Origin: an uncultured Candidatus Saccharibacteria bacterium
GTDB taxonomy: Bacteria; Patescibacteriota; Minisyncoccia; Phycocordibacterales; UBA9973
Direction of reading: 5' to 3'
Assembly: GCA_964532495.1 (NCBI GenBank)
Contig: CAZHJZ010000002.1
Location: 79,501 to 143,500 of the forward strand
Length of the DNA stretch: 64,000 bases
This document shows, in pieces, positions 18,114-60,520 of this stretch (position 1 is the first letter of the stretch; each line of letters begins with the position of its first letter). The notes below the pieces were generated by a model. It was given only the letters and a program-made list of their open reading frames with translations. It did no database searches and was not told the DNA's origin. The translations under genes were made by a program, and so were the position numbers.

Positions 18114-18830
18114 TTATTCAATATCAGCGACAATCGCCATGTGGTCGCTCACGCCGCTTATCAAGCGGACATTCTTTGCGACATATGTGGGCGTAGTAAA
18201 AAGTCCATCCACCATGCGCTGCAATCCTGGTACTCGATGTAGTTCCTGATCCAAACTTGTTGTATATTTTTCCGGAATATTATCCTTATATCGTTCAGCC
18301 AATTTCGCAAATGCCGCTCTTCCTCGCGGTGCATTGAAATCTCCAGCGAGAATGAACTGCCCGATTTTATCAAGCGCAAGGAACATGCTGTCGATATCGC
18401 GTAATTGGTAGTCGGTCACTTCGCCGTTAGGTGTCCATGCCGCATGCGTCGTTGCAACTTTGAATTTCACATCATTGATTTCTATAACGCATGAGAGCAC
18501 TGCACACTGGACAAGAAGATGCGTATCATATCCCATGTGAGGATCCATGACGGTTACCTGTTCCTCCGAACCGGCATAATACTGCTTGAGAATATCTTTC
18601 ATTTCATATTTTGAAAAAATTCCCAGACCCATGAGTTTTCCCGCATGAGAAAATGTGTCATAGACCATTGGAACAAAATATCCCTTCATTCCGACTTCCA
18701 ACCCAAAGAATGTGAAATCTTCGAGCAAGATCTCCTGCACGCAGATAACATCGGGCTTCTCGATGCGCACAAACGGAATGACGCGATGAAGATGTTTGTT
18801 TCCTTCAATATTTACTGAGATGAGTTTCAT
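18114..18830 (-). CDS. endonuclease/exonuclease/phosphatase (EEP) family protein
   Basis: N-terminus KLISVNIEG...DVICVQE and C-terminal SDHMAIVADI, typical of the EEP fold. Confidence 0.7.
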   Translation of the reverse strand: MKLISVNIEGNKHLHRVIPFVRIEKPDVICVQEILLEDFTFFGLEVGMKGYFVPMVYDTFSHAGKLMGLGIFSKYEMKDILKQYYAGSEEQVTVMDPHMGYDTHLLVQCAVLSCVIEINDVKFKVATTHAAWTPNGEVTDYQLRDIDSMFLALDKIGQFILAGDFNAPRGRAAFAKLAERYKDNIPEKYTTSLDQELHRVPGLQRMVDGLFTTPTYVAKNVRLISGVSDHMAIVADIE

Positions 18831-18920: not shown

Positions 18921-19280
18921 TCAAAAAACATTATTTTTCAACTCTTTATATAACTTATTATATTCTTTTTCGCCTTCTTTTGTAGCTAAAAACCAATACC
19001 ATGTGTGTGAGTCAATATTCTCTACTTTTAAGGAATTGATTACTTCTTTCCTGAGACGACTTTCGTCAAGTTGGACTTCTTGGTAACTTCGGTTGTTAAT
19101 AAATTTATATTCTGTTGGAAAAATTTTCTTTTCTTTTACCAAATCAACTACAACTTCAGCTATACGATTAGCTTCAGCCTCCGTTCTTTCTTGCTCATTA
19201 CCCCAAAACTCCCATGAACCATATTCACTTTCAGAGCATACTTCAAGTATATTGAATTGTATTTCTTTTTTATTGATCAT
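18921..19280 (-). CDS. hypothetical small protein, possible orphan immunity protein of the Rhs locus
   Basis: 119-aa ORF in a very AT-rich cassette downstream of the rhs gene; no motif recognised. Confidence 0.4.
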   Translation of the reverse strand: MINKKEIQFNILEVCSESEYGSWEFWGNEQERTEAEANRIAEVVVDLVKEKKIFPTEYKFINNRSYQEVQLDESRLRKEVINSLKVENIDSHTWYWFLATKEGEKEYNKLYKELKNNVF

Positions 19281-19523
19281 CGTAAGCTAAGAAGACTTTT
19301 TCGTCTTTCCAAATTTGAATGATATCAAGCGGATGAAAAACTACTTCGTCTCATGACTTTACAGCTTTGAGAAGTTTTTCTCAGTAAAGATCATCGTCCA
19401 AAATCCCTGTCCATTCAGCTGAATCTTGTTGCTTTGTAATTTTAACCCACTTTCTTTCAGCACCTCACCTTCCACTTCTACTAGAAAATGATTTTTACGA
19501 GCTCCTATGGAATTACTCAGTTT

Positions 19524-19835
19524 TTATAGCCAACCAAATTCTTTTAGAACATTTGTTAAATTATTAAACTTGAAACTCAAATACCAAAAATAATACTTAT
19601 CTTCACTTGATGTATCACGAGGTATGATACAAATACCGTGAGCAACAATTGGTAGATATTTTTTTATTTCTATTTTTTCGATTTGGTCATGGGTAAAACA
19701 ATATTTTTTTCTAAACAATTGATTGTTTAGAATTAGCTCATCTTGGCAAACTTCTAAAGTAACAAATGGCCAAGTAATCTGCCAAGATCCGATCCAAGCA
19801 CCGCCTCTGAATTTATTTTCTTTAGTATTTACCAT
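19524..19835 (-). CDS. putative cognate immunity protein of the Rhs C-terminal toxin
   Basis: 103-aa ORF beginning 4 nt after the rhs stop, same strand, AT-rich like the toxin tip. This gene order is the canonical polymorphic-toxin arrangement. Confidence 0.5.
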   Translation of the reverse strand: MVNTKENKFRGGAWIGSWQITWPFVTLEVCQDELILNNQLFRKKYCFTHDQIEKIEIKKYLPIVAHGICIIPRDTSSEDKYYFWYLSFKFNNLTNVLKEFGWL

Positions 19836-19838
19836 AAT

Positions 19839-22800
19839 TTACTTTGTTAATTTATTAATTAAGTTTGCAACATTTGTAGCACCTTGATTTACGGCACTGG
19901 TTATAGAATTAACCGCATTTTTCATACCATTAATAATACCAGAAATATTACCCTGATATACAGGAGTTGTTTTATTAACACCTCCGCTAAAAGTTACAGG
20001 TATAGGCGTTGGACCCAATCTTGCTCCCATCCCGATACCAACTTCAGTTCCAGAATATTTTCCGCCAGAAAAATTAGTAGTAACATCTCCTCCAAGAAGG
20101 ACTTTACCTCCTAGGGAAGCATAGTTCTCGGTTCCCAATGTATCATTCCAAGTTTTTGCGTTTGAATAACCTGCTGATATTCCAATCGAAGCATCTGCAC
20201 CGGCTAATCCACCACCATGTAAAGACTTTGATATACCAAATGTTCCGTCAGAAGCAAAACCTATATTAAACGAACTACCAACTTCGCCACCCAAACCGAT
20301 GTTAGTTGTTAAACCAAGCTGAAAAGCAAATAGGCCGGTTGGATCGCTCATAGTTATCGGATTATTAAGACCATAACTATATGAATTTAAATTTTGTGGA
20401 TTAGATAAATATTCAAATAAAAATTGGTTATTGAACTGATCTTTTTTTTTATTTGAATTTCGCCAGTTTGTATCCCATTTTTTGTTGAAATCTTGAGAAC
20501 CAATAAGCAAGAACATTGGATCTTGAGAGATGAATTGACCTCTATCCCCCCCATAGTAGCGTGCATTCAGATAATTTAATCCTGTATCGGCATCATACTC
20601 CTGCCCAATAAATTGTTTTTGCTCATTGAATCCTGTCGCCTGTTCATTCAATCGCACTTCGCCGAATGGATAATAATCAAGCAGCTGATTTTTTGCGCCA
20701 GCTGCATCTGAAATGACATTTGATCCCAACACAGTGTCTGTATGCACATAGTATGGAGTAATAGTTGTCCCTACAGTTTCTATCGTTCCTACCAGCTGGT
20801 TGCCGACATATATTTGTTTAGTCTTTTTACTTCCAACTGTATTGTAATATTTGTTCGGATAATGCGTGGTATTTGTCTTGTCATTATAATAGACTCGATT
20901 GCCTGCGTGATCGTACAGATATGAAATAAATCTTGAGCCCTTCACTGTTTTTACAAGCTCATCTTTATAGTTCCAAGTATTAGTCAACTGACCGTTTGTC
21001 AGCATGTCACCATTTCTATTGTATGTAACGGAAGTACCATTGACGCTTGTTGCAGCATGGGGGTTAGCAAAGCTAGTACCAGTAGAACCCAAGTAAGAAT
21101 ACGAACCTACATCAGACTTGGAGAGAATATTCCCAAGCACATTGTAAGCATATGTTTGCGTATACGCGCTCTGCCCAGGCGCAACATTTGTAATAGTTGC
21201 CGATAAGAGACGATTTAGATCGTCGTATGTATAGTTGGCCATCTTTGCTCCATTGGTAGCTGAAGCATCAACTAATTGGGTAATATTGCCATCCACATCA
21301 TACGTATATGTCAGATCCTGCAATGTTATATTTGAAGAATTGAGAGTTTTTTTCGAATTCAATCGATACAGTTCCGCTGCATCATAAGTATTGGTGGTAG
21401 TAACTCCATTCGCGTACACCATTGTTGCAATCATATTTGTTGGAGAATAATCAATGTTTGAAACAATGTTTGCATACGCCGTTGCATTCTCCTTCGCTTC
21501 TGCTTTATCTACCAAGCCTGCGGTGTTGTATGTATATCGAACAGATGCTCCGTCTGGATAGATAATCACTGATTGATTTCCCTGACGGTCATACACATAC
21601 GAAGTGAAATAGTTGGAAGTACCAATCGTTCTGGATTCGGTTGCAATTGTACCGTTTTTATCGTAACCATACACAGTATTGACACCGTTTAGCATCGTTA
21701 CTGAACAGAGCTTTCCTTTCCCATTGGCGCAGGCGTCATATGCATAGGCAATCTCAGTCCCCGTTGCACCAGTGTAGTTTTCCTGGATCTGACGATTGAG
21801 GCCATCGTATTTGTAAGTTGTTTTTGCTTCAGGGCTGGTCAGTATTATTAGATTGCCCACAGTATCATACGCGTATTGCCATGTTCCAAACGATGTATCG
21901 CCTACTGCATGAAGATCTTGCGCTGTTAAGCGATTACCTCGGCCGTCATACGTGAAATCACGGATATTTCCGAGCGCATCAGTAAGTCGCACAAGCTGTC
22001 CTGCAACGTTCCAAAGATACTGCGTAGTGTATGTTGAACCAGCATTGATCTCATCTACTTGAATAAGTTTTCCATACGCATTGAGGAAATAGTTTTTTAC
22101 TTTTCCCATAGGGTCAGTTACTTTTGTTTTAAATCCGGCATATGTATTTGTCGTAGTGCCAATACTATTCTGTTCAGATGTGACTCTGCTGAGAGCATCA
22201 TATGAACGCACGGAGTATAATGCTGCGATAGTAATAGCAGGAGTACGCAAAGCGCCACCGCTTGAATACGGCAGTGATTGTTTCTGAATTCTGCCCGAAG
22301 AATCATACACAGTATCTGCGGTATTAAACATCCCAGCAGTTTCTGATTCCTTGCGTGTCTGAATGCTGCGGCCCAATCCATCAAAGTACTCGTATGCTTC
22401 AACGCCATTTGAGGCATCGAGATATTGTGTGGTTTGTTTTAGTACGTTGTTTGAAGTGTCAGTATATACATATGCTGTTTTTAGAACGGGAGAACTTCCG
22501 CCAGCAGGATCAGGAATGCTTTCCGTAAGCGGTCTGCCAAAACCATCATAACTGCTCATCCATGTATTCCCATTTGCATCGGTCATTGAACTAACCTTGC
22601 CTACTCCATAGTCATATACGTAGTTGGTCGGCTGCAAAATTGCGTTAGTGACTGTTGCGGGATACAAATTGTATGAATCATAAACATATGAAGTTGCATT
22701 ACCGAGAGGGTCTGTTTCAGATGTCACATTTCCAAATGTGTTGTAGGCCTTCTGTTTAGAAGCATATGTTGCTCCGCTTATCCATTGTTCTTGTTTTGTT

Positions 22801-25800
22801 TGATTGCCCTTAGTAACAGAATTAAATGGGCCATTATCGTAATAGAATTTTGATTCCGAAAGCTTTAGAGAAGACTGATCTTTGATAGAAATAGAAATTG
22901 GAACAATCACACCTGTAACGCCATTTCTTACATAGTCATAACTGGAATTTCGCCTATCTGTCCCTGTATCGGTAAACGTTCCGTCAGAAGCTGCAATTAC
23001 CGTTCCGAATTCCGTCTGTTCTGCCACAAATCCTGTAGAAGCATCGTACTTGTAACTTGTCGCCGTGTCCGTATGGGTAGGCAATCCGTCATATTGAAGA
23101 GTAATAGTTCGGTACAGATATACGAAATCAGCGGCTGCTGAAAGCGGTGCCGAATTCCATTGGCTGATCTCTGTCTGATACAAATTGTTAGCAAGGTTAT
23201 ATGTTTCTTTACGATATGGTTTCCCTATTTTGGATCGGCTATCAGCAAGCTCACCCAAAGCAGCATTAGTTGAGTTTCCTTGGTGATAATATGTTTTTAT
23301 TATTGCGTCAGGGCGCGTCTCTGTTACCACACCAAAGCCAGCAAACTTGCGATCGGATGGCGAAGCGTAGTAATAATATCCATCTGCATATGAGTATGAT
23401 GTTGTACTGCTGGAGCCATATCCATCATTTACTGTCACAGCTGCTACTGTGGTAACAACAAGCGGAAGTGAAGGGTTTAGTAAATTTCCTGATTGATCTT
23501 TGTACTGTGCAGAGCTTTTGTAGGTAACTCCATACGAGCCTCCGGCCGGAAGCGTAATCGTTTTTAAAAGATCATTAGGGCTTGTATTTGTATTTGGATA
23601 AATATTGTTATTCGCAACAAAATCCTGCGCTCCGTCGGCATTGATATCCATTAGTAAGTATGGATTCTGGCACAGACAGTTTACCGTTGCACTTATCGAT
23701 GATGTGAAACTTGGACTTGTGACATAGAGCGAAGCGAATCCTTTACCAGTGTTTGTGTATATTCTGTCGCCGATCACATAGATATCATCGAGGCCGTCAT
23801 TATTGAAATCGGCAATTTCAAATTTATTATATGAAGTTCCGAAATACGCATTCTGTAAAAAGTAAAAGTCTGGTGGCAATATATATGAATTATCCAATAC
23901 CCAATTTGTTCCGGTGTTAATATACACATTGTCCGTATAAACGTATTGGCAATTGCCGCAATTATTCAAGCTTCTGCTTGCTTGTATAAAGTCCGGAAGC
24001 TTATCACCATTGATATCCATCATGAAGTAATCAGATCTTCCAGAAAAAATTGGCGTGTACGCGAGAGGCACTGTTCCAGTTCCCGCGTGGCTTAACGTTG
24101 CATTGACATTGAAATTTGTTCCAGTGTTGAGAGATGTTGTTGTATTGTAATAAATCGGCAATCCGCCAGTAGAAGGATTGGTGTCTTGTAAATAGTCTAC
24201 CAACCCATCGCCGTTAAAGTCTTGGGTAAATAACGAGTACCATGGATTCGAAGTATATTTGGGGTATTGTGAGCTACTAGGTGTATACGGCACATTAGTC
24301 CAACCGGCTCCAGTGTTGATATTTTCATCAGGCATCACCGATGCGTTGTATGCGTACGGTGTTCGAAGTAGATCGGGCTTTAGGTCTCCGTTTAGGTCTA
24401 CAAGCCGAGTGCCGCCATCAAATTTACTGTTGCCGTCCGAGTAATTCATAATCCCCGCTGGAGGATTGAATGAAGCAGGACTTTGGGCAAACAGGCCTGT
24501 TGTAGGATTGAACAGCATCGTTTTTTTATCTGAAGTATATGTGTAGACAGTCCATTCATATGCCTTTAAAGCATCTGGATAGGCATCGCCGTTGATATCG
24601 CCAACAATCACTCCATTTTGCACGTCAGTTGGGAATAATCCTGGTACGGATTGGGCATTGGCGGTTTTGAATGTCTGATCAATATTGGAATTGTAGGCAA
24701 ATGCTTCAGCTGGCAAAGTGACTCCTGTTCCGTTTGCATCGTATCTCGTTTCAGTTATCGAAGAAAGCAAAGAACGCAGGCCGTTATTCCCTTGTGTATA
24801 CGAAAAAATGTATTTGCCTTTTAATATATTGTTTGCATAAATCCGAACATCGGAAATGATATAAGAAGTACGAACCAAGTATGCAGTAGCGTAGCTTTCG
24901 ATTACATCAGAGCGACTGATTCTGCTGAAAGTAATTTTATAAATGCCTGGCAATCCAGCAGCGTTTGTATACGTAATAGTATCCGGGTATATCTGCCCGT
25001 CATTTTTGTAATATGTATAGTCAATCGAATTCCCATTTGAATCCTGAGTTTTCTCAAGCATCCATTTTGAAACTTGCGCTGTATCGGCTGGATTGTCTTG
25101 GCGGGATTGTGCTGTTGTTCCATACGTATATGTAGTTCCGGCTTTATCCGTTACTGTCCATGATGTTCCTGAATATGAATACTTAAGCATCTCGCCACCA
25201 TCTGAGCGAGACATGTATGTTGACCCTGCGATATTTGCAAGCTCTCCTGAAACAGAAGAAGTAAACTCATTTTGTGAATACAATGTCTCGGTTCCTTTTT
25301 TGTTTACTCGTTCGATGTACGGAATAGTTATATTCCAACCGTACCCAACGAGCGAAGCATCCTTGCCGCTCTGTGAATTGTAATTTAAAGCAATACTGGG
25401 AGTCATCCCGTTTCTTCCTTGCGGCACAACTATGCTATGGCTGTATGAAAGTGCTCCAGTCGAAGCGTCAGTTTCGGGTTTTACTTGTTTTACTGGAGTA
25501 GGTGGATTGTCGCCATTTGAAGGATTTATCGCGAGCAAAGACTGCTGAACTTGCTGTTGTTGTACGTTTGCCAGTGGAGCAGCTTCCGGCCCCTCGGTGT
25601 GCTTTGGCTCTAAATCAGAAACTATATCTATATTTTTACTATCCAGGGTTACTATTTTTTTATCTGAAACTTCTGATGCCACTGTTTGGAGCGGTGGAGC
25701 AATAATCTGTTCTTTCGAAACTGATCCGCTGCTGCGGAGAGACTCAGCAGCCATTGGAACTTCTTGCGCATATACAGTGATGAGCGGGGCGCTCATCATG

Positions 25801-25868
25801 GTAGCGGCAAGCGAGAGTGATACGACCTTAAGCAGCGCCAAGCGCTCAAAACGTACTAATGTAATCAT
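19839..25868 (-). CDS. Rhs/YD-repeat polymorphic toxin (TcB/TcC-like: signal peptide, SpvB/FG-GAP-like N-terminal repeats, YD-repeat shell, DPTGL motif, Gly-rich C-terminal domain); the ORF is open to 25976
   Basis: Many YD repeats (YTYDVDGN, YLYDHAGNRVYY, YVYDRQGNQ, YKYDGLNR...). FG-GAP-like DxNGDGxxD repeats (DINGDAYPD, DLNGDLKPD, DFNGDGLVDY, DINGDKLPDF, FNNDGLDDIY). Rhs core end ...QDPM...SDPTGL followed by a 163-aa Gly/Ser/Thr/Asn-rich tail. Start at MITLVRF chosen because a promoter-like AT-rich segment and a terminator lie 5' of it. Confidence 0.9.
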   Translation of the reverse strand: MITLVRFERLALLKVVSLSLAATMMSAPLITVYAQEVPMAAESLRSSGSVSKEQIIAPPLQTVASEVSDKKIVTLDSKNIDIVSDLEPKHTEGPEAAPLANVQQQQVQQSLLAINPSNGDNPPTPVKQVKPETDASTGALSYSHSIVVPQGRNGMTPSIALNYNSQSGKDASLVGYGWNITIPYIERVNKKGTETLYSQNEFTSSVSGELANIAGSTYMSRSDGGEMLKYSYSGTSWTVTDKAGTTYTYGTTAQSRQDNPADTAQVSKWMLEKTQDSNGNSIDYTYYKNDGQIYPDTITYTNAAGLPGIYKITFSRISRSDVIESYATAYLVRTSYIISDVRIYANNILKGKYIFSYTQGNNGLRSLLSSITETRYDANGTGVTLPAEAFAYNSNIDQTFKTANAQSVPGLFPTDVQNGVIVGDINGDAYPDALKAYEWTVYTYTSDKKTMLFNPTTGLFAQSPASFNPPAGIMNYSDGNSKFDGGTRLVDLNGDLKPDLLRTPYAYNASVMPDENINTGAGWTNVPYTPSSSQYPKYTSNPWYSLFTQDFNGDGLVDYLQDTNPSTGGLPIYYNTTTSLNTGTNFNVNATLSHAGTGTVPLAYTPIFSGRSDYFMMDINGDKLPDFIQASRSLNNCGNCQYVYTDNVYINTGTNWVLDNSYILPPDFYFLQNAYFGTSYNKFEIADFNNDGLDDIYVIGDRIYTNTGKGFASLYVTSPSFTSSISATVNCLCQNPYLLMDINADGAQDFVANNNIYPNTNTSPNDLLKTITLPAGGSYGVTYKSSAQYKDQSGNLLNPSLPLVVTTVAAVTVNDGYGSSSTTSYSYADGYYYYASPSDRKFAGFGVVTETRPDAIIKTYYHQGNSTNAALGELADSRSKIGKPYRKETYNLANNLYQTEISQWNSAPLSAAADFVYLYRTITLQYDGLPTHTDTATSYKYDASTGFVAEQTEFGTVIAASDGTFTDTGTDRRNSSYDYVRNGVTGVIVPISISIKDQSSLKLSESKFYYDNGPFNSVTKGNQTKQEQWISGATYASKQKAYNTFGNVTSETDPLGNATSYVYDSYNLYPATVTNAILQPTNYVYDYGVGKVSSMTDANGNTWMSSYDGFGRPLTESIPDPAGGSSPVLKTAYVYTDTSNNVLKQTTQYLDASNGVEAYEYFDGLGRSIQTRKESETAGMFNTADTVYDSSGRIQKQSLPYSSGGALRTPAITIAALYSVRSYDALSRVTSEQNSIGTTTNTYAGFKTKVTDPMGKVKNYFLNAYGKLIQVDEINAGSTYTTQYLWNVAGQLVRLTDALGNIRDFTYDGRGNRLTAQDLHAVGDTSFGTWQYAYDTVGNLIILTSPEAKTTYKYDGLNRQIQENYTGATGTEIAYAYDACANGKGKLCSVTMLNGVNTVYGYDKNGTIATESRTIGTSNYFTSYVYDRQGNQSVIIYPDGASVRYTYNTAGLVDKAEAKENATAYANIVSNIDYSPTNMIATMVYANGVTTTNTYDAAELYRLNSKKTLNSSNITLQDLTYTYDVDGNITQLVDASATNGAKMANYTYDDLNRLLSATITNVAPGQSAYTQTYAYNVLGNILSKSDVGSYSYLGSTGTSFANPHAATSVNGTSVTYNRNGDMLTNGQLTNTWNYKDELVKTVKGSRFISYLYDHAGNRVYYNDKTNTTHYPNKYYNTVGSKKTKQIYVGNQLVGTIETVGTTITPYYVHTDTVLGSNVISDAAGAKNQLLDYYPFGEVRLNEQATGFNEQKQFIGQEYDADTGLNYLNARYYGGDRGQFISQDPMFLLIGSQDFNKKWDTNWRNSNKKKDQFNNQFLFEYLSNPQNLNSYSYGLNNPITMSDPTGLFAFQLGLTTNIGLGGEVGSSFNIGFASDGTFGISKSLHGGGLAGADASIGISAGYSNAKTWNDTLGTENYASLGGKVLLGGDVTTNFSGGKYSGTEVGIGMGARLGPTPIPVTFSGGVNKTTPVYQGNISGIINGMKNAVNSITSAVNQGATNVANLINKLTK

Positions 25869-25971
25869 ATGTATACACACACTACTAATAAACAAGGAAA
25901 GAAGCAATTCTAGTAATACGACATGAAAAAACGATAAAATATACATAAAATTCACTGAGACTATATATATA

Positions 25972-26003
25972 AACAAAAAAACGCCCGGACGGCGTTTTTT
26001 TTG
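25972..26003. terminator. intrinsic terminator downstream of tRNA-Ala (minus strand), AACGCC/GGCGTT stem with flanking A/T runs
   Basis: Hairpin and T8 run read directly from the sequence. Confidence 0.55.
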
Positions 26004-26010
26004 TTTATTG

Positions 26011-26083
26011 TGGACCCTATCGGATTCGAACCGATGACCTCCTCATTGCAAATGAGGCGCTCTACCAACTAAGCTAAGGGCCC
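26011..26083 (-). tRNA. tRNA-Ala (anticodon TGC)
   Basis: rc gives GGGCCCTTAGCTTAGTTGGTAGAGCGCCTCATTTGCAATGAGGAGGTCATCGGTTCGAATCCGATAGGGTCCA, including the Ala-identity G3:U70-type acceptor stem. Confidence 0.85.
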
Positions 26084-55037: not shown

Positions 55038-57548
55038 TTATTGCGTTGCGATATATGAGCGAGTAACTGGTCCAAAGTATCCTATTGCAGGCTGTATGCC
55101 ATGAGCTTTCTGATATGCGGCAAGCGCTGCCTGCGTCTTTCTGCCAAATCGAGTGACTTCTTTTCCAAGTGATCCATCTCCGGAAAGCGCAATCGGATAG
55201 CCATGCGTATTCAAGAATACTTGCAGACGCTGCACATCTTCGTTATCCGAACCAAGCGTCAATGATCGAGAGAATATGAATGAAGATTGTACTGGAACGG
55301 AGATTGCAGAAGTTTCAGTAGCGCATTTCTGTCCCGTAATCGGCGAGTACTGAATAGTAGCGTTGCATCCAAGTGAAATTGTGGTAAGCGGCGCAATGCT
55401 AACTGGAGCTTTTGCTGTATTAAGAGCCACAGGAACCAAGCCGCCTCCTGTTCCAGAACTTACGATCGTCTGAGGAGTTTGGCAATCAGCGCTCATTCCT
55501 CCATCGACTATTGTCCAATGATAGGTTGTAGCCAGGCTGAAACGAGCAGGTGTGGCAGCACAGTATATACTGTTGCCTCCATCAAATGGGACGTTGGATC
55601 GTACATTTTGCGCTGCCCAAGAAGTCAGCATCGAATCATAGTTCGCCTTCGAAAGGGTTACATTGGTAAACAAATCAGTCATATTAGTTACATGACTAAT
55701 ATCCCAAGTTCCTAAATTCTGATCGAAACCAGTAGCTAAGTAGAATGCACTATCTAAATTGACTAAATTATGTGTGTCCCATCCGCTGATGTCTTGGTTG
55801 AATGCTGTATCGTATGCAAACATTGCATACATGTCAGTTGCAGCGCTTACATCCCATCCGCTGATGTCTTGATTGAAGCTTGTGCCTTGAAAGGCGTTCC
55901 CAAAATAAGTTACATGACTAACATCCCAATTATCCAAAGGCTGATTGAAAAGCTCAGCACCCATAAACAAAGTTCCCATTCCAATGACACTTGAAGTGTC
56001 CCAATTATTGAGGGGCTGGTTGAAAGCGTTCGCTTCATAAAACATTCCACCCATTCCGGTAACATGTGACACATCCCATGAATTGAGCGGCTGGTTGAAT
56101 GCATTTGTGCTCATAAACATTGAAGACATATTCGTCACATTGGCAGTATTCCAGTTGCTTATGTTTTGGTTGAATACGGAAGCTCCCATAAACATGCCAT
56201 CAAAACTTGTCGCACTTGATACATCCCAGTTATTGAGCGGCTGGTTGAATGCAGCTGCACCGGTAAACATCGAATCAAATCGAGTAACATGAGAGACATC
56301 CCAAGAGTTGAGCGGCTGGTTGAATGCGGCATCAGCGTAAAACAAACCAATCATATTAGTCACATTTGAAGTGTCCCACGATGAAATGTCTCCATTGAAT
56401 GCTGTTCCTTGAAAAACCCCGATCATTGAAATGATAGATCCAGTATCCCAACCGCTCAGATCTTCGGTAGTGACTCCGCTGTCTCGAAGCATATATGTCA
56501 TATCTGTGACGCCGGAAAGGTCGGGAGCATCAGTGGCGGTAATTGCAAGATTGGTACATCCAAAAAATGCACCAGCCATATTTTCCCATGCTATCGTGCC
56601 CCATTGATCAACTGAGAGTATTTTATTTTTATCACCAGCATATGCAAACGTTATCGCTGGAAAAACACCAGAAATTGATACTGTGTATGTACCGGGCGTC
56701 ACATAGGTATGTGTAATTGCCCCTGTAACACCAGTATCTGTATTTGAATCTCCCCAATCAACATTGTAGTTATACGTAAGACCATTTGTTGTTGGAATAG
56801 TGATCTGATTGCTGCTGGATACTCCAGGATTGTCTGTTTTCCAAGTAGTAATAAATTCTGTTGCAGGAGCATCAAGGTCCGTAATTACAATCTCATCAAC
56901 ATAGTCACGATCAACTGCAGCTCCATATCCAGCTGTGTATTGAACAAGACCAGATGGGTAGGTCGCATCTGTTGCAGAACCAAGCAGCGTATAGGTAACG
57001 CCGTCATCTGAATAGTAAAAACTCAATGAAGTGCCAATTGCGGTTGCCTTAAACCAGCGCGGCTGTGATTTCGGCAAACTACCACTCCACAGCGGAGTGT
57101 ATGTTCCTGAAGAAACTCGCCATATATACACGTTGCTTGAGTCATAGACATGGAATAGATACCCCATTCGAGCACCGGCTGAGTTTGCGACACTTGTATC
57201 TGTTGCCTGAGCGCGCAGGGTAAATCCCCCACGACCGAGATCATTTGAATATGCCTGTTTCCATATTACTGATTGATCAGCTGAACCAGCAAAGTTATCA
57301 AATAATATTCCAGCAATAACGCCAGTTTGCGTAACTGCTCGCAATGAATTACCCAATGTTGGTTCATTTTGAACGTCGAAAGTTCCGGCAGTTACTGTTG
57401 TATTTGCGGGAACTTGCCCGATAGTATCAGCCTCAAAATTATATGTAGACGCAGCGTATGTATGCGACGGAATAAACAAAAAAGAAAGTACGAACAGTAA
57501 AAAAAGTATGCCGGCAAAAGATCTGCCTTTGAGATATAGAATAGTCAC
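55038..57548 (-). CDS. secreted DUF285 (BspA-like/Mycoplasma-type) repeat protein with C-terminal PG_binding_1 peptidoglycan-binding domain
   Basis: Signal peptide. ~12 tandem repeats of the FNQPLNxWDVSxVTxMxxMF type. C-terminal DVQRLQVFLNTHGY...AALAAYQKAHGIQP matches PG_binding_1. Confidence 0.75.
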   Translation of the reverse strand: MTILYLKGRSFAGILFLLFVLSFLFIPSHTYAASTYNFEADTIGQVPANTTVTAGTFDVQNEPTLGNSLRAVTQTGVIAGILFDNFAGSADQSVIWKQAYSNDLGRGGFTLRAQATDTSVANSAGARMGYLFHVYDSSNVYIWRVSSGTYTPLWSGSLPKSQPRWFKATAIGTSLSFYYSDDGVTYTLLGSATDATYPSGLVQYTAGYGAAVDRDYVDEIVITDLDAPATEFITTWKTDNPGVSSSNQITIPTTNGLTYNYNVDWGDSNTDTGVTGAITHTYVTPGTYTVSISGVFPAITFAYAGDKNKILSVDQWGTIAWENMAGAFFGCTNLAITATDAPDLSGVTDMTYMLRDSGVTTEDLSGWDTGSIISMIGVFQGTAFNGDISSWDTSNVTNMIGLFYADAAFNQPLNSWDVSHVTRFDSMFTGAAAFNQPLNNWDVSSATSFDGMFMGASVFNQNISNWNTANVTNMSSMFMSTNAFNQPLNSWDVSHVTGMGGMFYEANAFNQPLNNWDTSSVIGMGTLFMGAELFNQPLDNWDVSHVTYFGNAFQGTSFNQDISGWDVSAATDMYAMFAYDTAFNQDISGWDTHNLVNLDSAFYLATGFDQNLGTWDISHVTNMTDLFTNVTLSKANYDSMLTSWAAQNVRSNVPFDGGNSIYCAATPARFSLATTYHWTIVDGGMSADCQTPQTIVSSGTGGGLVPVALNTAKAPVSIAPLTTISLGCNATIQYSPITGQKCATETSAISVPVQSSFIFSRSLTLGSDNEDVQRLQVFLNTHGYPIALSGDGSLGKEVTRFGRKTQAALAAYQKAHGIQPAIGYFGPVTRSYIATQ

Positions 57549-57613
57549 ACAGACATCATATCAAACCCACCATCATCGAACCAGCCAAAAACAGTAAAAT
57601 CTGTGCAAAAACA

Positions 57614-60520
57614 TTACCACCAGAGTGCGGCAAGTTGCGTAGATTTCATGTGGTTGCGAGTCTTCGCGCCTAAGTAGCCAGATGCAGGAGTAATCTTGTT
57701 TTTAGTTTGATATCGAATGAGTGCTGCTTTTGTCTGTGATCCAAAATATCCCGTGATTCCTGCAGATAGAGAATACCCCTGGGCAATAAGCACAGACTGC
57801 AGTGCTTTGACATCTTCACCTGACATTCCTGACCGCAAGTCCCGTACTGGCAAGCTTGGCGTTTTTGGCGCAGAGGTTGTTTGAATGGAGGCAATAGGTG
57901 GAGTCGGGATAGATGGAGTTACAGAAGAATTAAGAAATTCTACTGGTACCATTCCCCCATTAGTTAGAGTTGGAATAACGACGGTGTCGATAGAATAATT
58001 TGCTGATGTGCCTCCGTTCATTGGAACAATTTTAGCAATATCATCGCTGCCTACATTTACTGCCCACAAATTTGTACCATCAAAGGCAAGGTCTCGTGGA
58101 TTTGATCCGACTCCTGAATATTCTGTTACAACACCAGTTGGAGTAATTTTTGAAACCGAATCCGCGCCGTAGTTCGCAGACCACATATTAGTACCGTCAA
58201 AAGCAAGGCCGTATGGACTGGATGGAGCGTCATATGTAGTTACAATGCCAGCCGGGCTGATTTTAGAAACTGTACTTGTACCCACGTTGCCCGTCCACAT
58301 GTTTGTGCCATCGAATGCGATACCGATTGGGTATGAAGTAGATGGGAGCGAATACGTTGTCATGACTCCGCTTGGTGTAATCTTGGTCACACTGCTTCCA
58401 TCAGAGTTCGCAGTCCACATGTTTGTGCCATCGAATGCAATACCCCATGGACCTGCACCAGTTCCTGTATATGTTGTTTTTGTGCCGTTCGGCGCTACTT
58501 TTGAAACACTATTATCCCCATAGTTCGATGTCCACATGTTGGTGCCATCAAATGCAATACCAAAAACATTTTGCCCTATGCTTGAATAGTTAGTAACCGC
58601 TCCGCCCAACGTCACCTTACTTACTGAATTCCCTGCGTTGTTTCCTGTCCACATGTTGGTGCCATCGAAGGCGATGCTAAACGGCTGCGCTCCTGTGCCA
58701 GTATAGTTTGTAATAACGCCAGATGGTGTGACTTTGCGAACAACATCGCCGTATCCGTTAGATACCCACATGTTTACGCCATCAAATGACACATCGGTTC
58801 CGCTTCCGCCTGTGTATTTTGTAATAGCAACTTTTGATCTAACTGAAATAGTATTATTTACAATCGCGATTGCTGCTGTCGGTGTAAATGTTGCTGTATA
58901 TACTTTTGGATCTCCAGTCACTGCTAAATTACTGATAGTTCCATTTTCAGCAGTTATATCGCCAACAGTGAAATCAGTTGGAGCAGTTGGAAATATAAAT
59001 GTAACAGTTGCCGTCTCGCCTACCCGGAGATTATTGCTCGACATTGTAACCACCGCTGATCCTACAGTGTTCCCCGCATTTGCAACAGGCAGTACGCCGT
59101 TAAACATCGCATCGATAGCAGCCTGAACCTGTCCCTGTGTAGTGGCATTACTTGCGGCAAGAATTATATTGATATTTGAAAGTTCATCGCTGGTGACGCC
59201 GGTAATTCCTGCATTGGTATAGTCGGTAAGCGTAGGTACTGTGGTTGTTCCATGACTGGAAGCGTATGCAAGTATTTTTGTAAGTGAAGCCTGCGCTGGT
59301 GTTGGAGCACTTGTGGTAACACTGATAGAAGCTATAGCATTTGCGGTCGATGGATCTTTTACTGTTGATTCAGGTACTGCGCTTATAGTGTGATTGAGGT
59401 TAGTAGTGCTTAATATATCCGCTCCCACTGTTCCACTGACCACCACAGTTACTGTTGCACCTCCAGGAATAGCTCGGTGAATTGTGCCGATATCCGCTCC
59501 AGTACCTGAAGCAGATCCGCCAGCAGTTGAAGTGAGATTCCATGTAATATTATCGATTCCAAGAGTTCCGACAGGAATTGAGTTGGTTATAGTCGTATCG
59601 GAAGAACTATTTGCGCTCAAATTGGTGACAGTATATGTGTAAGTAAATGCATCTCCTCGATGATACGTTCCGCTCGGCGGCACCGTAACTTGCGTTCGAA
59701 GATCAACAGGAAGAATTACTTCTAGGTTACCTATTGCGTGAATGTTTGTAGAGCCTCCAGTACTTGCCGCAAATCCAAGTTTCAAATTTGTAGGCGGAGC
59801 GACGTTGTATACGTAATCATTGATGACTGTGTTCCATGTTGCTCCTTCATCCCAGCTCATCTCAACGCGAATCGTTGCGTTACCAGATCCTGGCGTGACA
59901 GTTACTCGAGCTGTTCTCCATCCGCCATCAATACTCTGACCGAAAGCTGAAGATACGTTAGTATGTGTCAGGTATGGATATCCAATCAAACCATTTCCAG
60001 CACCACGAAGCACAACTGTATCTGGGGTTGTTGGGAATCCCGAATCTTCAACTGAGATATAATTTCCCCATTCATCAAATCCAACCCCGAGATACGCATG
60101 CGGTATGCCTGGAGTTCCGCCAGTAGTTTCCTGAGCATATCCTAAAGCGCCACCCGCCGCTCCTGCTGCAATATTTGTTTCGTCAACTTGGTCACCGTCC
60201 ACTAAAAAGAACGAGAGACCGTCAGCACCGTTTCCTCCTCCATCGTAATATCTAAATTGCGCCACGATACCCAGAGTCGAAGAAAAGGAGTCGTTGTAAA
60301 ATCCAAGTCCACTCTGAGCTGTGCCGGCGGATGTGAGCCGCAATGTTTGATCTCCTGAAACTGTAGTATTCCAAGCAGCACTTGATCTTAATTCCCAGTC
60401 ACCAGGCTTTGATCCGGAAAATGTTTGAGTTATCGGAAAGGTGGCCGCAAATGCTGGTGTAATAAATGTTGCAACTAATAATAAACCAAGAGCGGTGAAG
60501 CAAATTTTTTGGAATTTCAT
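57614..60520 (-). CDS. secreted L-type-lectin-like / DUF11-repeat / beta-propeller protein with C-terminal PG_binding_1 domain
   Basis: Signal peptide. Legume-lectin-like blocks ADGLSFFLV and LGVGFDEWGN. At least seven ~42-aa repeats (P.GIAFDGTNMWT.N.G..SVSKI.P.G..T.Y). C-terminal DVKALQSVLIAQGY...AALIRYQ matches PG_binding_1. Confidence 0.75.
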   Translation of the reverse strand: MKFQKICFTALGLLLVATFITPAFAATFPITQTFSGSKPGDWELRSSAAWNTTVSGDQTLRLTSAGTAQSGLGFYNDSFSSTLGIVAQFRYYDGGGNGADGLSFFLVDGDQVDETNIAAGAAGGALGYAQETTGGTPGIPHAYLGVGFDEWGNYISVEDSGFPTTPDTVVLRGAGNGLIGYPYLTHTNVSSAFGQSIDGGWRTARVTVTPGSGNATIRVEMSWDEGATWNTVINDYVYNVAPPTNLKLGFAASTGGSTNIHAIGNLEVILPVDLRTQVTVPPSGTYHRGDAFTYTYTVTNLSANSSSDTTITNSIPVGTLGIDNITWNLTSTAGGSASGTGADIGTIHRAIPGGATVTVVVSGTVGADILSTTNLNHTISAVPESTVKDPSTANAIASISVTTSAPTPAQASLTKILAYASSHGTTTVPTLTDYTNAGITGVTSDELSNINIILAASNATTQGQVQAAIDAMFNGVLPVANAGNTVGSAVVTMSSNNLRVGETATVTFIFPTAPTDFTVGDITAENGTISNLAVTGDPKVYTATFTPTAAIAIVNNTISVRSKVAITKYTGGSGTDVSFDGVNMWVSNGYGDVVRKVTPSGVITNYTGTGAQPFSIAFDGTNMWTGNNAGNSVSKVTLGGAVTNYSSIGQNVFGIAFDGTNMWTSNYGDNSVSKVAPNGTKTTYTGTGAGPWGIAFDGTNMWTANSDGSSVTKITPSGVMTTYSLPSTSYPIGIAFDGTNMWTGNVGTSTVSKISPAGIVTTYDAPSSPYGLAFDGTNMWSANYGADSVSKITPTGVVTEYSGVGSNPRDLAFDGTNLWAVNVGSDDIAKIVPMNGGTSANYSIDTVVIPTLTNGGMVPVEFLNSSVTPSIPTPPIASIQTTSAPKTPSLPVRDLRSGMSGEDVKALQSVLIAQGYSLSAGITGYFGSQTKAALIRYQTKNKITPASGYLGAKTRNHMKSTQLAALWW

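What the first reader, a model, noticed from the sequence alone, without database searches (positions are those of the whole stretch)
19839..25976. Giant Rhs/TcB-TcC-like polymorphic toxin with an AT-rich, glycine-zipper-like C-terminal tip
This 2045-aa ORF combines three parts. First, a signal peptide and SpvB/FG-GAP-like DxNGDGxxD repeats. Second, a long YD-repeat shell. Third, the Rhs autoproteolysis motif (..SDPTGL, encoded around 20331-20345), followed by a 163-aa Gly/Ser/Thr/Asn-rich tail. The tail contains GxxxG-like runs (GGGLAGADASIGISAG) and almost no charged or catalytic residues. DNA composition drops sharply from mid-40s % GC in the repeat shell to ~30% GC exactly at the DPTGL junction, and stays low through the downstream small ORFs. 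That is the classic signature of a horizontally swapped toxin tip plus immunity module. The tip does not resemble the nuclease, deaminase or ADP-ribosyltransferase C-terminal toxin domains I know. It looks more like a membrane-active, glycine-zipper domain, so it may be a new C-terminal toxin family carried by an encapsulating Rhs shell in a reduced-genome bacterium.
Basis: partly seen in the sequence, partly recalled or inferred. Interest (0 to 1): 0.78.

Follow-up and report, generated by a model that had tools for sequence, protein, structure and literature searches.

The report
Rhs toxin with Vap-like barrel cargo
This is a real giant Rhs "cocoon" toxin gene, probably from an ultra-small (Patescibacteria-type) bacterium, whose swapped-in cargo is an undescribed glycine-rich domain always paired with its own small immunity gene; the cargo is predicted to fold like the membrane-permeabilising Vap virulence proteins of Rhodococcus equi, not as a helical glycine zipper.

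Summary
The ORF, its architecture and the DPTGL site at 20331-20345 are confirmed: signal peptide, SpvB, six FG-GAP blades, YD shell, Rhs-associated core. The true start is ATG 25868 (2009 aa).

The compositional break is real only at third codon positions. GC3 is 0.195 in the tip against 0.362 in the shell; raw GC is 38% against 42%. The drop begins 20-75 codons upstream of DPTGL.

The 163-aa tip matches no Pfam, NCBIfam or PDB sequence. It defines a rare family: 19 clusters among 1.8 billion representatives, every named member from Patescibacteria, and always placed after DPxG of an Rhs core.

A homolog of the 103-aa downstream ORF directly follows the tip in 8 of 9 distinct loci. It also occurs beside a tip remnant and as orphan copies. 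This is a toxin-immunity cassette.

The mechanism is inferred: a non-enzymatic, membrane-perturbing cargo. Verdict: a new cargo family within a known system.

The parts
26010..26083 (-). tRNA-Ala(TGC); upstream boundary of the Rhs island
   Evidence: ARAGORN; Rfam tRNA, 73.8 bits
25975..26001 (.). Bidirectional terminator-like hairpin (11-bp stem) after the tRNA. It contains the spurious TTG 'start' of the 2045-aa ORF
   Evidence: Terminator scan; sequence read
19839..25868 (-). Rhs polymorphic toxin gene, 2009 aa from ATG 25868; stop TAA at 19839-19841
   Evidence: An identical 2009-aa protein, P0003, is in the database. Solved relatives by sequence: Tse5, other Rhs proteins, TcdB2-TccC3
25767..25868 (-). 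Sec-type signal peptide MITLVRFERLALLKVVSLSLAATMMSAPLITVYA|QE
   Evidence: Read from the sequence: basic n-region, hydrophobic core, VYA cleavage-like site. No predictor was run
24957..25454 (-). SpvB / TcB N-terminal domain
   Evidence: Pfam SpvB, E 4.2e-18; aligns to TcdB2 residues 42-220
23622..24599 (-). Six FG-GAP-like DxNxDxxxD blades (TcB-type beta-propeller)
   Evidence: Pfam FG-GAP_3, E 1.3e-10, 4 stretches; six motifs about 60 aa apart
20676..23054 (-). YD/RHS-repeat shell
   Evidence: Pfam RHS_repeat x7 and DUF6443; NCBIfam YD_repeat_2x and RHS_core; 14 YxYD/YDxxG motifs in this range
20331..20675 (-). Rhs-associated core (plug / aspartyl autoprotease): GQEYDADTGLNYLNARYYGGDRGQFISQDP ... 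PITMSDPTGL, with DPTGL at 20331-20345
   Evidence: TIGR03696, 55.9 bits against a cutoff of 32.5. The motif, with both Asp positions, aligns to solved Rhs proteins 8qja and 8h8a
20409..20489 (-). Lys/Asn-rich insert FNKKWDTNWRNSNKKKDQFNNQFLFEY inside the core. GC3 starts to drop here, so this is the probable 5' edge of the swapped cassette
   Evidence: GC3 windows. Shared with the closest tip relatives P0002, P0004 and P0005; absent from an Rhs with a different tip
19947..20327 (-). Cargo domain, predicted eight-stranded Vap-like beta-barrel (ORF aa 1884-2010)
19845..19925 (-). Cargo C-terminal amphipathic helix (ISGIINGMKNAVNSITSAVNQGATNVANLINKLTK)
   Evidence: Predicted as a helix in both models. 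Hydrophobic moment 0.43-0.57 here, at most 0.26 elsewhere in the tip. Low pLDDT (44-57)
19524..19835 (-). Cognate immunity-type gene: 103 aa, soluble, ATG 3 nt after the toxin stop codon
   Evidence: Homologs directly follow the tip in L001, L002, L007, L009, L010, L011 and L015. The family has 33 clusters. No transmembrane segment (hydropathy maximum 0.84). No Pfam, PDB, PADLOC or PHROG hit
18921..19280 (-). ORF119, a low-GC3 (0.25) gene at the distal end of the island; function unknown
   Evidence: It is absent from all related loci

Best explanation
The gene encodes a Sec-exported Rhs polymorphic toxin with a fused TcB-TcC layout: SpvB domain, six-bladed propeller, YD-repeat cocoon, and an aspartyl-protease plug ending in DPTGL.

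The plug should cut off a 163-aa cargo held inside the cocoon (inferred from the family). The cargo, the last part of the plug and the next gene form a mobile cassette acquired by recombination. This is shown by the GC3 break, by homology ending at DPxG, and by conserved pairing across loci.

The next gene encodes a small soluble protein that most likely binds and neutralises the cargo (inferred from synteny).

The cargo founds an undescribed family known so far only from Patescibacteria. It is predicted to fold as a glycine-rich eight-stranded barrel like the Vap proteins of Rhodococcus equi, followed by an amphipathic, Lys-rich helix.

It has no invariant catalytic-type residue. I therefore propose that it is a non-enzymatic toxin that binds and perturbs the target cell's cytoplasmic membrane and dissipates ion or proton gradients, as VapA does to liposomes and phagosomes.

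My sub-confidences:
- toxin-immunity cassette on an Rhs carrier: about 0.85
- Vap-like fold: about 0.6
- membrane-perturbing mechanism: about 0.35
For: Carrier:
- Pfam and NCBIfam domain hits.
- Sequence matches to solved Tse5, other Rhs proteins and TcdB2-TccC3.
- DPTGL and both core Asp positions are present.

Cassette:
- GC3 is 0.195 (tip), 0.221 (downstream ORF) and 0.25 (ORF119), against 0.362 for the shell and 0.435 +/- 0.043 for other genes.
- 52% identity to an orphan Rhs C-terminus in L006 ends exactly at DPTGLF/DPDGKF; a different cargo follows there.

Family:
- 19 representative clusters in 1.84 billion proteins, each with the domain after DPxG[E/L].
- Every named member is from Patescibacteria.

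Pairing:
- The immunity homolog directly follows the tip even at 39-44% tip identity (L009, L010).
- In total 8 of 9 distinct loci have it adjacent; in the ninth (L006) it lies 2.7 kb downstream.
- A truncated tip remnant plus immunity gene occurs in a Paceibacterota genome (L004). Orphan immunity copies sit downstream of Rhs genes with other tips (L013, L014).

Fold:
- AlphaFold2 with the family alignment: pLDDT 71.6, pTM 0.60, element order b1-b4, short helix, b5-b8, long helix.
- Foldseek ranks VapB first.
- The VapG barrel is 19.4% Gly (PMC4518536); the tip is 19.6% Gly.

Function by analogy:
- VapA permeabilises liposomes and collapses pH gradients (PMC10100859).
- Rhs cargo can be a pore-former, as in Tse5 (PMC9637101).
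- A soluble cytoplasmic immunity protein for a membrane-depolarising toxin has a precedent in EsxX/ExiAB (PMC12744356).
- Alignment invariants are 7 Gly, S61, W66 and P116. No invariant Asp, Glu, His, Lys, Arg or Cys.
Against: - There is no sequence-level link to Vap proteins: hhalign probability 0.1% against two Vap profiles, and no Pfam hit.
- The Vap C-terminal GGGxGxW motif is absent.
- The model rests on 18 sequences and moderate confidence, and its coordinates could not be inspected to verify strand order.
- No internal duplication was detected that would mirror the Vap pseudo-twofold symmetry.
- The conserved partner protein is soluble with no signal peptide. For most membrane-targeting toxins the immunity protein is a membrane protein, so a cytoplasmic target is equally compatible.
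- D33, D51 and D68 (16 of 17-18 sequences), K81 (15/18) and invariant S61 could form an unrecognised active or ligand-binding site.
- Not all Vaps are strongly membrane-active; VapB is weak (PMC10100859).
- No delivery partner (TcA, T6SS) was found in the 64-kb window.
Confidence: 0.6

Rival explanations
1. The cargo acts inside the target cytoplasm on a soluble target, either as an enzyme of an unrecognised class or as a stoichiometric binder of an essential molecule (avidin-like sequestration). The soluble immunity protein blocks it there, as WapI does for WapA.
For: - The immunity-type protein has no signal peptide or transmembrane segment.
- It also occurs as orphan copies without the toxin (L013, L014). 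This suggests protection against incoming toxin in the cytoplasm.
- S61 and W66 are invariant. D33, D51, D68 and K81 are about 90% conserved.
- Vap structures were originally likened to avidins and binding proteins (PMC4089522).
Against: - There is no invariant acidic, basic, His or Cys residue. The most common His (position 9, 11/17) is Gln in this very protein.
- No similarity to any nuclease, deaminase, ART or peptidase family in Pfam, NCBIfam or PDB.
- Vap barrels have a filled core and no binding cavity (PMC4089522, PMC4518536).
- A stoichiometric binder is a poor fit for a toxin delivered one copy per cocoon.
Confidence: 0.2
2. One reading: the tip is a helical glycine-zipper (GxxxG) membrane toxin, like Tse4, EsxX, TelE or Tse5-CT.
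For: - 19.6% Gly and 9 GxxxG motifs, including GGGLAGADASIGISAG.
- Rhs proteins with pore-forming cargo exist, for example Tse5 (PMC9637101).
Against: - GxxxG is not enriched over composition (P=0.10).
- Maximum 19-residue hydropathy is 0.77, so no transmembrane helix is predicted.
- The alpha-helical hydrophobic moment is at most 0.26 through residues 1-125, whereas the beta moment is high there.
- Both AlphaFold runs put strands there.
- The partner protein is not a membrane protein.
Confidence: 0.05
3. The tip is a small transmembrane beta-barrel (OmpX-like or designed-TMB-like) that inserts into the target membrane as a leaky channel. The hydrophobic alternate residues would face lipid and Gly/Ser would line a narrow pore.
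For: - Strict alternation of hydrophobic and small residues in all strands, with high beta hydrophobic moments.
Against: - An aromatic girdle could not be assessed without model coordinates.
- No precedent is known to me for a monomeric 8-strand barrel inserting into a cytoplasmic membrane.
- The immunity protein is soluble.
Confidence: 0.1
4. The tail is not a toxin at all. It would be a structural or adhesive C-terminal domain, with the downstream gene as a chaperone or an unrelated neighbour.
For: No toxicity data exist. The domain lacks catalytic motifs.
Against: - It sits after the DPxGL autoproteolysis site, the cargo position.
- It is replaced by an unrelated domain in a 52%-identical Rhs.
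- Tip remnants with a retained partner gene, and orphan partner genes in arrays after other Rhs tips, are hallmarks of toxin-immunity turnover.
- The composition is foreign.
Confidence: 0.05

Closest known systems
Tc-toxin BC components (TcdB2-TccC3, YenB-YenC) and Sec-dependent Rhs/WapA toxins of monoderm bacteria
   Same: SpvB N-terminal domain, FG-GAP propeller, YD-repeat cocoon, Rhs-associated core ending in DPxGL, a polymorphic C-terminal cargo, and an immunity gene immediately downstream. It has an N-terminal Sec signal, as WapA does.
   Different: TcB and TcC are fused in one chain. No TcA-like translocator, T6SS, PAAR or VgrG is in the window. The cargo family is undescribed. All named relatives come from Patescibacteria.
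Vap virulence-associated proteins of Rhodococcus (Prescottella) equi (VapA, B, D, G; Pfam R_equi_Vir)
   Different: No detectable sequence homology. The GGGxGxW C-terminus is missing. The tip has an extra 30-aa amphipathic helix. It is carried as Rhs cargo with a dedicated immunity gene, whereas Vaps are free secreted proteins with a disordered N-terminus and no known immunity partner.
Tse5 (RhsP1) of Pseudomonas aeruginosa, an Rhs with a pore-forming cargo
   Same: An Rhs cocoon whose autoproteolytically released C-terminal fragment is non-enzymatic and depolarises membranes (PMC9637101, PMC10684867). Tse5 is the best sequence match of the shell among solved structures.
   Different: Tse5 is delivered by the T6SS. 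Tse5-CT is a transmembrane protein that inserts spontaneously into model membranes (PMC9637101). Here the cargo is predicted to be beta-rich and no transmembrane segment is found in either the cargo or the partner protein.
EsxX-ExiAB/ExiCD of Staphylococcus aureus (LXG glycine-zipper toxin)
   Same: A membrane-depolarising toxin that is neutralised in the cytoplasm by a soluble immunity complex encoded next to it (PMC12744356). This is a precedent for the soluble partner seen here.
   Different: It uses T7SS/LXG delivery and a helical glycine zipper, and it has an additional membrane immunity pair. No second conserved gene accompanies the cassette here.

Membership tests
Rhs / YD-repeat polymorphic toxin (TcB-TcC-type) | YD/RHS repeats forming the shell | tested here: met
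   Pfam RHS_repeat, E 1.2e-15, 7 stretches; TIGR01643, E 2.5e-8. Matches to solved Rhs shells.
Rhs / YD-repeat polymorphic toxin (TcB-TcC-type) | Rhs-associated core with the DPxGL cleavage motif and two conserved Asp | tested here: met
   TIGR03696, 55.9 bits (cutoff 32.5). DPTGL at 20331-20345. YDADTGL...SQDP aligns to the same motif in 8qja and 8h8a. Cleavage itself was not tested.
Rhs / YD-repeat polymorphic toxin (TcB-TcC-type) | TcB-like SpvB domain and FG-GAP propeller | tested here: met
   Pfam SpvB and FG-GAP_3; alignment to TcdB2 residues 42-220; six blades.
Rhs / YD-repeat polymorphic toxin (TcB-TcC-type) | Variable C-terminal cargo, with homology to relatives ending at DPxGL | tested here: met
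   52% identity to the L006 Rhs stops at DPTGLF/DPDGKF. GC3 break.
Rhs / YD-repeat polymorphic toxin (TcB-TcC-type) | Cognate immunity gene immediately downstream | tested here: met
   Conserved adjacency in 8 of 9 distinct loci, plus remnant and orphan copies. Neutralisation was not tested.
Rhs / YD-repeat polymorphic toxin (TcB-TcC-type) | Dedicated delivery partner (TcA pentamer, or T6SS VgrG/PAAR) | tested here: not met
   No such gene is among the large ORFs of the 64-kb window. A Sec signal peptide is present instead. The rest of the genome was not seen.
Vap family (Pfam R_equi_Vir) | Sequence membership | tested here: not met
   No Pfam hit for any of the 18 members. hhalign probability 0.1% against two Vap profiles.
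Vap family (Pfam R_equi_Vir) | Eight-stranded barrel of two Greek keys with a helix between b4 and b5 | tested here: inconclusive
Vap family (Pfam R_equi_Vir) | Glycine-rich barrel (about 19% Gly) with conserved Gly in strands | tested here: met
   19.6% Gly; 7 invariant and 8 near-invariant Gly columns, against 20 of 103 residues in VapG (PMC4518536).
Vap family (Pfam R_equi_Vir) | C-terminal Gly-rich run ending in Trp (GGGxGxW) | tested here: not met
   Present in all 8 aligned Vaps. Absent from the tip, which ends in an amphipathic helix.
Vap family (Pfam R_equi_Vir) | Membrane binding and permeabilisation | not testable with these tools
   Known for VapA (PMC10100859). Testing it here needs liposome or bilayer assays.
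Glycine-zipper helical membrane toxins (Tse4, EsxX, TelE type) | Hydrophobic or amphipathic helices carrying GxxxGxxxG | tested here: not met
   Hydropathy maximum 0.77. GxxxG count 9 against 5.9 +/- 2.0 (P=0.10). The motif-bearing region is predicted to be beta.
Glycine-zipper helical membrane toxins (Tse4, EsxX, TelE type) | Membrane-embedded immunity protein | tested here: not met
   The conserved partner has no transmembrane segment. No second conserved gene lies downstream.
Ntox10 (Pfam PF15520) | Sequence membership | tested here: not met
   One of 18 members hit it, at E 0.0054. Ntox10 is an alpha+beta domain with several charged residues from Bacteroidetes and Verrucomicrobia (PMC3482391).

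The most novel reading that the evidence does not exclude
The Vap fold has been described as unique to the R. equi virulence proteins and their sequence homologues, and its origin is unexplained. The most novel reading is that it is an interbacterial toxin fold.

This Patescibacteria Rhs cargo would then be the first Vap-type barrel found inside a polymorphic toxin system, and the first with a dedicated protein inhibitor. That would imply that VapA's membrane and pH-collapsing activity derives from, or converges on, an antibacterial membrane toxin. It would also imply that ultra-small epibiotic bacteria use such toxins against rivals or hosts.
Probability: 0.3. Interest if true: 0.7.

Novelty: new variant of a known kind. 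Interest (0 to 1): 0.5.

Why it matters
Rhs toxin-immunity cassettes are well known, so the system itself is ordinary. Three things are new:
1. An uncatalogued cargo family and an uncatalogued immunity family.
2. Their apparent restriction to Patescibacteria, whose means of antagonism are poorly known.
3. A predicted structural link to the Vap barrel, whose mechanism and evolutionary origin are still debated.

If the link holds, the small immunity protein would be a natural inhibitor of a Vap-like barrel. The pair would then be a tractable bacterial model for how such glycine-rich barrels disturb membranes.

Tried and rejected
- Single-sequence AlphaFold of the tip: pLDDT 43.6, unusable except that it also gave N-terminal strands and a C-terminal helix.
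- Profile search of the tip against PDB sequences: only a chance hit to SEY1, E 0.57.
- Pfam scan of all 18 tip members: isolated weak hits only (Ntox10 0.0054, ApoLp-III 0.023, and others), one member each. Rejected.
- PADLOC gave nothing. PHROGs gave only a weak hit of the C-terminal helix to a tape-measure protein, E 0.0027. Rejected as low complexity.
- hhalign of the tip profile against two Vap profiles: no signal.
- hhalign of the two halves of the tip, testing Vap-like pseudo-symmetry: E 0.03 over 9 columns, not significant.
- Foldseek against AFDB50 was unavailable. BFVD viral structures gave nothing below E 0.01.
- The search for related loci with the tip alignment failed because no conserved stretch was long enough.
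- Scans with the immunity alignment added few loci: L015, plus L016-L018, which duplicate loci already held.
- Immunity family: no PDB or Pfam match.
- Search for a second conserved downstream gene, such as a membrane immunity protein: none by all-against-all BLAST.
- The source organism could not be named. Exact look-ups of 10 window proteins returned no organism names, and the look-up of the Rhs protein failed.
- No TcA or T6SS gene was found in the window.

Full report
**1. The observation**

The ORF at 19839-25976 on the minus strand exists.
- Pfam SpvB, FG-GAP_3, RHS_repeat (7 stretches) and DUF6443.
- NCBIfam Rhs_assc_core, 55.9 bits against a cutoff of 32.5, and YD_repeat_2x.
- Six DxNxDxxxD blades about 60 residues apart.
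- DPTGL encoded exactly at 20331-20345, leaving a 163-aa tail (19842-20330).

The listed TTG start is spurious. It lies inside an 11-bp terminator hairpin (25975-26001) that follows tRNA-Ala (26010-26083). The gene starts at ATG 25868 and encodes 2009 aa, identical to database protein P0003. It opens with a Sec-type signal peptide.

By sequence, the nearest solved proteins are Tse5, other T6SS Rhs proteins and TcdB2-TccC3. The N-terminus aligns to TcdB2 and the shell to TccC3. The core motif GQEYDADTGLNYLNARYYGGDRGQFISQDP aligns, with both Asp positions, to solved Rhs proteins.

**2. Composition**

The GC claim is only partly right. Raw GC is 0.382 in the tip against 0.416 in the rest of the gene, and it rises to 0.41-0.42 in the middle of the tip because Gly codons inflate the first two codon positions.

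The break is clear at third codon positions:

| Region | GC3 |
|---|---|
| Tip | 0.195 |
| Downstream 103-aa ORF | 0.221 |
| ORF119 (18921-19280) | 0.25 |
| Rhs shell | 0.362 (no 164-codon window below 0.305) |
| 18 other genes of the window | 0.435 +/- 0.043 |

The drop starts around 20380-20560, which is 20-75 codons upstream of DPTGL. That region holds a Lys/Asn-rich insert (20409-20489). The closest tip relatives share this insert, but a related Rhs with a different tip lacks it. The swapped module therefore runs from the last part of the plug, through the cargo and the immunity gene, probably to ORF119.

**3. The tip is polymorphic cargo with a cognate partner**

The last 290 residues of the shell are 52% identical to an orphan Rhs C-terminus in metagenomic locus L006. 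The similarity ends exactly at DPTGLF/DPDGKF, and an unrelated domain follows there.

An exhaustive HMMER scan of 1.84 billion representative proteins found only 19 clusters with the tip domain, 18 of them at E<1e-10. In every member with an upstream sequence, the domain follows DPxG[E/L] of an Rhs-associated core. Every member that carries an organism name is from Patescibacteria: Doudnabacteria, Paceibacterota, Saccharibacteria, 'Patescibacteria group'.

The 103-aa ORF starts 3 nt after the toxin stop codon. Homologs directly follow the tip in L001, L002, L007, L009, L010, L011 and L015, even where tip identity is only 39-44%. Counting the window, that is 8 of 9 distinct loci. In the ninth (L006) the homolog lies 2.7 kb downstream, after another Rhs-CT cassette.

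Two further patterns fit toxin-immunity turnover:
- A Paceibacterota genome keeps a truncated tip remnant directly upstream of the partner gene (L004, L005, L016).
- Two loci carry the partner gene as an orphan in small-gene arrays downstream of Rhs genes with other tips (L013, L014).

The partner family has 33 clusters at 90% identity, and every member that carries an organism name is from Patescibacteria. It has no signal peptide or transmembrane segment: the maximum 19-residue hydropathy is 0.84. It matches nothing in Pfam, PDB sequences, PADLOC or PHROGs. No second gene is conserved downstream.

**4. What the tip is**

It matches no Pfam, NCBIfam or PDB sequence. The polymorphic-toxin catalogue of Zhang et al. 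lists nothing similar; its only pore-forming domain is the two-helix Tox-WTIP (PMC3482391).

The glycine-zipper idea fails on several counts:
- GxxxG occurs 9 times against 5.9 +/- 2.0 expected from composition (P=0.10).
- No hydrophobic helix is predicted (hydropathy maximum 0.77).
- The alpha-helical hydrophobic moment is at most 0.26 over residues 1-125, while the beta moment is high there.
- Only the last 35 residues form an amphipathic helix (moment 0.43-0.57).

AlphaFold2 with the 18-sequence family alignment gave pLDDT 71.6 and pTM 0.60. The model has strands b1-b4, a short helix, strands b5-b8, then a long C-terminal helix of low confidence.

Structural comparison:
- Foldseek independently ranks VapB first (probability 1.0) and gives VapG a probability of 0.99.
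- The VapG barrel contains 20 Gly in 103 residues (PMC4518536). The tip is 19.6% Gly.

There is no sequence-level homology. hhalign gives a probability of 0.1% against two Vap profiles built from pVAPA1037 and from enterobacterial Vap-like genes. The Vap GGGxGxW terminus is absent. I therefore describe the tip as Vap-like in predicted fold, not as a member of the Vap family.

**5. Mechanism**

Shown or strongly supported: an Rhs carrier, a cargo in the cleaved position, a swapped cassette, and a cognate partner gene.

Inferred: autoproteolysis at DPTGL, neutralisation of the cargo by the partner protein, and the cargo's mode of action.

Family conservation is dominated by glycine. The invariant columns are 7 Gly, S61, W66 and P116. 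No acidic, basic, His or Cys residue is invariant. The commonest His (11 of 17 sequences) is Gln in this protein. This argues for a non-enzymatic toxin.

VapA binds acidic-lipid membranes, releases carboxyfluorescein from liposomes and collapses proton gradients (PMC10100859). Tse5 shows that Rhs cocoons can carry membrane-depolarising cargo (PMC9637101). I therefore favour membrane perturbation by the barrel, helped by the Lys-rich amphipathic helix.

The main difficulty is the soluble partner protein, which points to an encounter in the cytoplasm. The EsxX/ExiAB pair shows that a soluble cytoplasmic immunity protein is compatible with a membrane-depolarising toxin (PMC12744356). A cytosolic target remains a serious rival: D33, D51, D68 and K81 are about 90% conserved and S61 is invariant.

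Some family members are short, signal-peptide-bearing proteins with only the Rhs core and the tip (P0006, P0011, P0012). This hints that the domain can act without a cocoon.

**6. Verdict**

The finding is real, and it is a genuine toxin-immunity island inserted next to a tRNA gene. The system type is known. The cargo and immunity families are new, and the predicted Vap-like fold is the most interesting lead.

No experiment-grade evidence for function exists. The fold rests on a moderate-confidence model, and the source organism could not be named.

Noticed in passing
window 25975-26083: tRNA-Ala, followed by a strong bidirectional terminator hairpin, directly abuts the Rhs gene. The island (Rhs, immunity gene, ORF119) lies between this tRNA and a normal-GC3 endonuclease/exonuclease/phosphatase gene (18114-18830). 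This looks like a tRNA-adjacent insertion.
   Followed up: partly
window 18921-19523: ORF119 (119 aa, GC3 0.25) has no family hit and no counterpart in any related locus. The 243-nt spacer before it (19281-19523) has stop codons in all frames. It may be an unrelated orphan immunity-type gene or a relic of an older cassette.
   Followed up: partly
P0006, P0011, P0012 (database proteins; contigs of 7.5-209 kb): Some tip-family members are short proteins (351-515 aa). They have their own signal peptide or N-terminal hydrophobic segment, only the last YD repeats and Rhs-associated core, and then the tip. They have no full cocoon.
   Followed up: no
L011 and L012 (about aa 2044-2118 of the translated ORF piece): A giant Rhs (3464 aa) carries a partial extra copy of the second half of the tip domain (profile positions 89-159), about 50 residues upstream of the complete tip.
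   Followed up: no
L004/L005/L016: 4608-5191 and 5401-5616 (L004 coordinates): A Paceibacterota genome has a truncated tip remnant, then an intact immunity homolog, then a second partial immunity fragment. These sit next to CBASS-like genes (SMODS, AGS_C, SAVED/HNH) and a LexA-like repressor.
   Followed up: partly
L020 4743-5252 (Pantoea sp. plasmid NZ_CP034366): A true Vap-family gene is embedded among annotated phage tail, baseplate and morphogenetic protein genes. It could be a payload of a contractile injection system, which would independently link Vap proteins to delivered toxins.
   Followed up: no
window 55038-60520: Two large predicted surface proteins have C-terminal peptidoglycan-binding domains: DUF285 x4 + PG_binding_1, and Big_12 + PG_binding_1. 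Their GC3 is low for this window (0.34-0.36), similar to the Rhs shell.
   Followed up: no
P0009 (227 aa): Here the tip domain is preceded by a non-Rhs N-terminal region, and only a degenerate FPTGE remains of the cleavage motif. This looks like a recombined orphan module.
   Followed up: no
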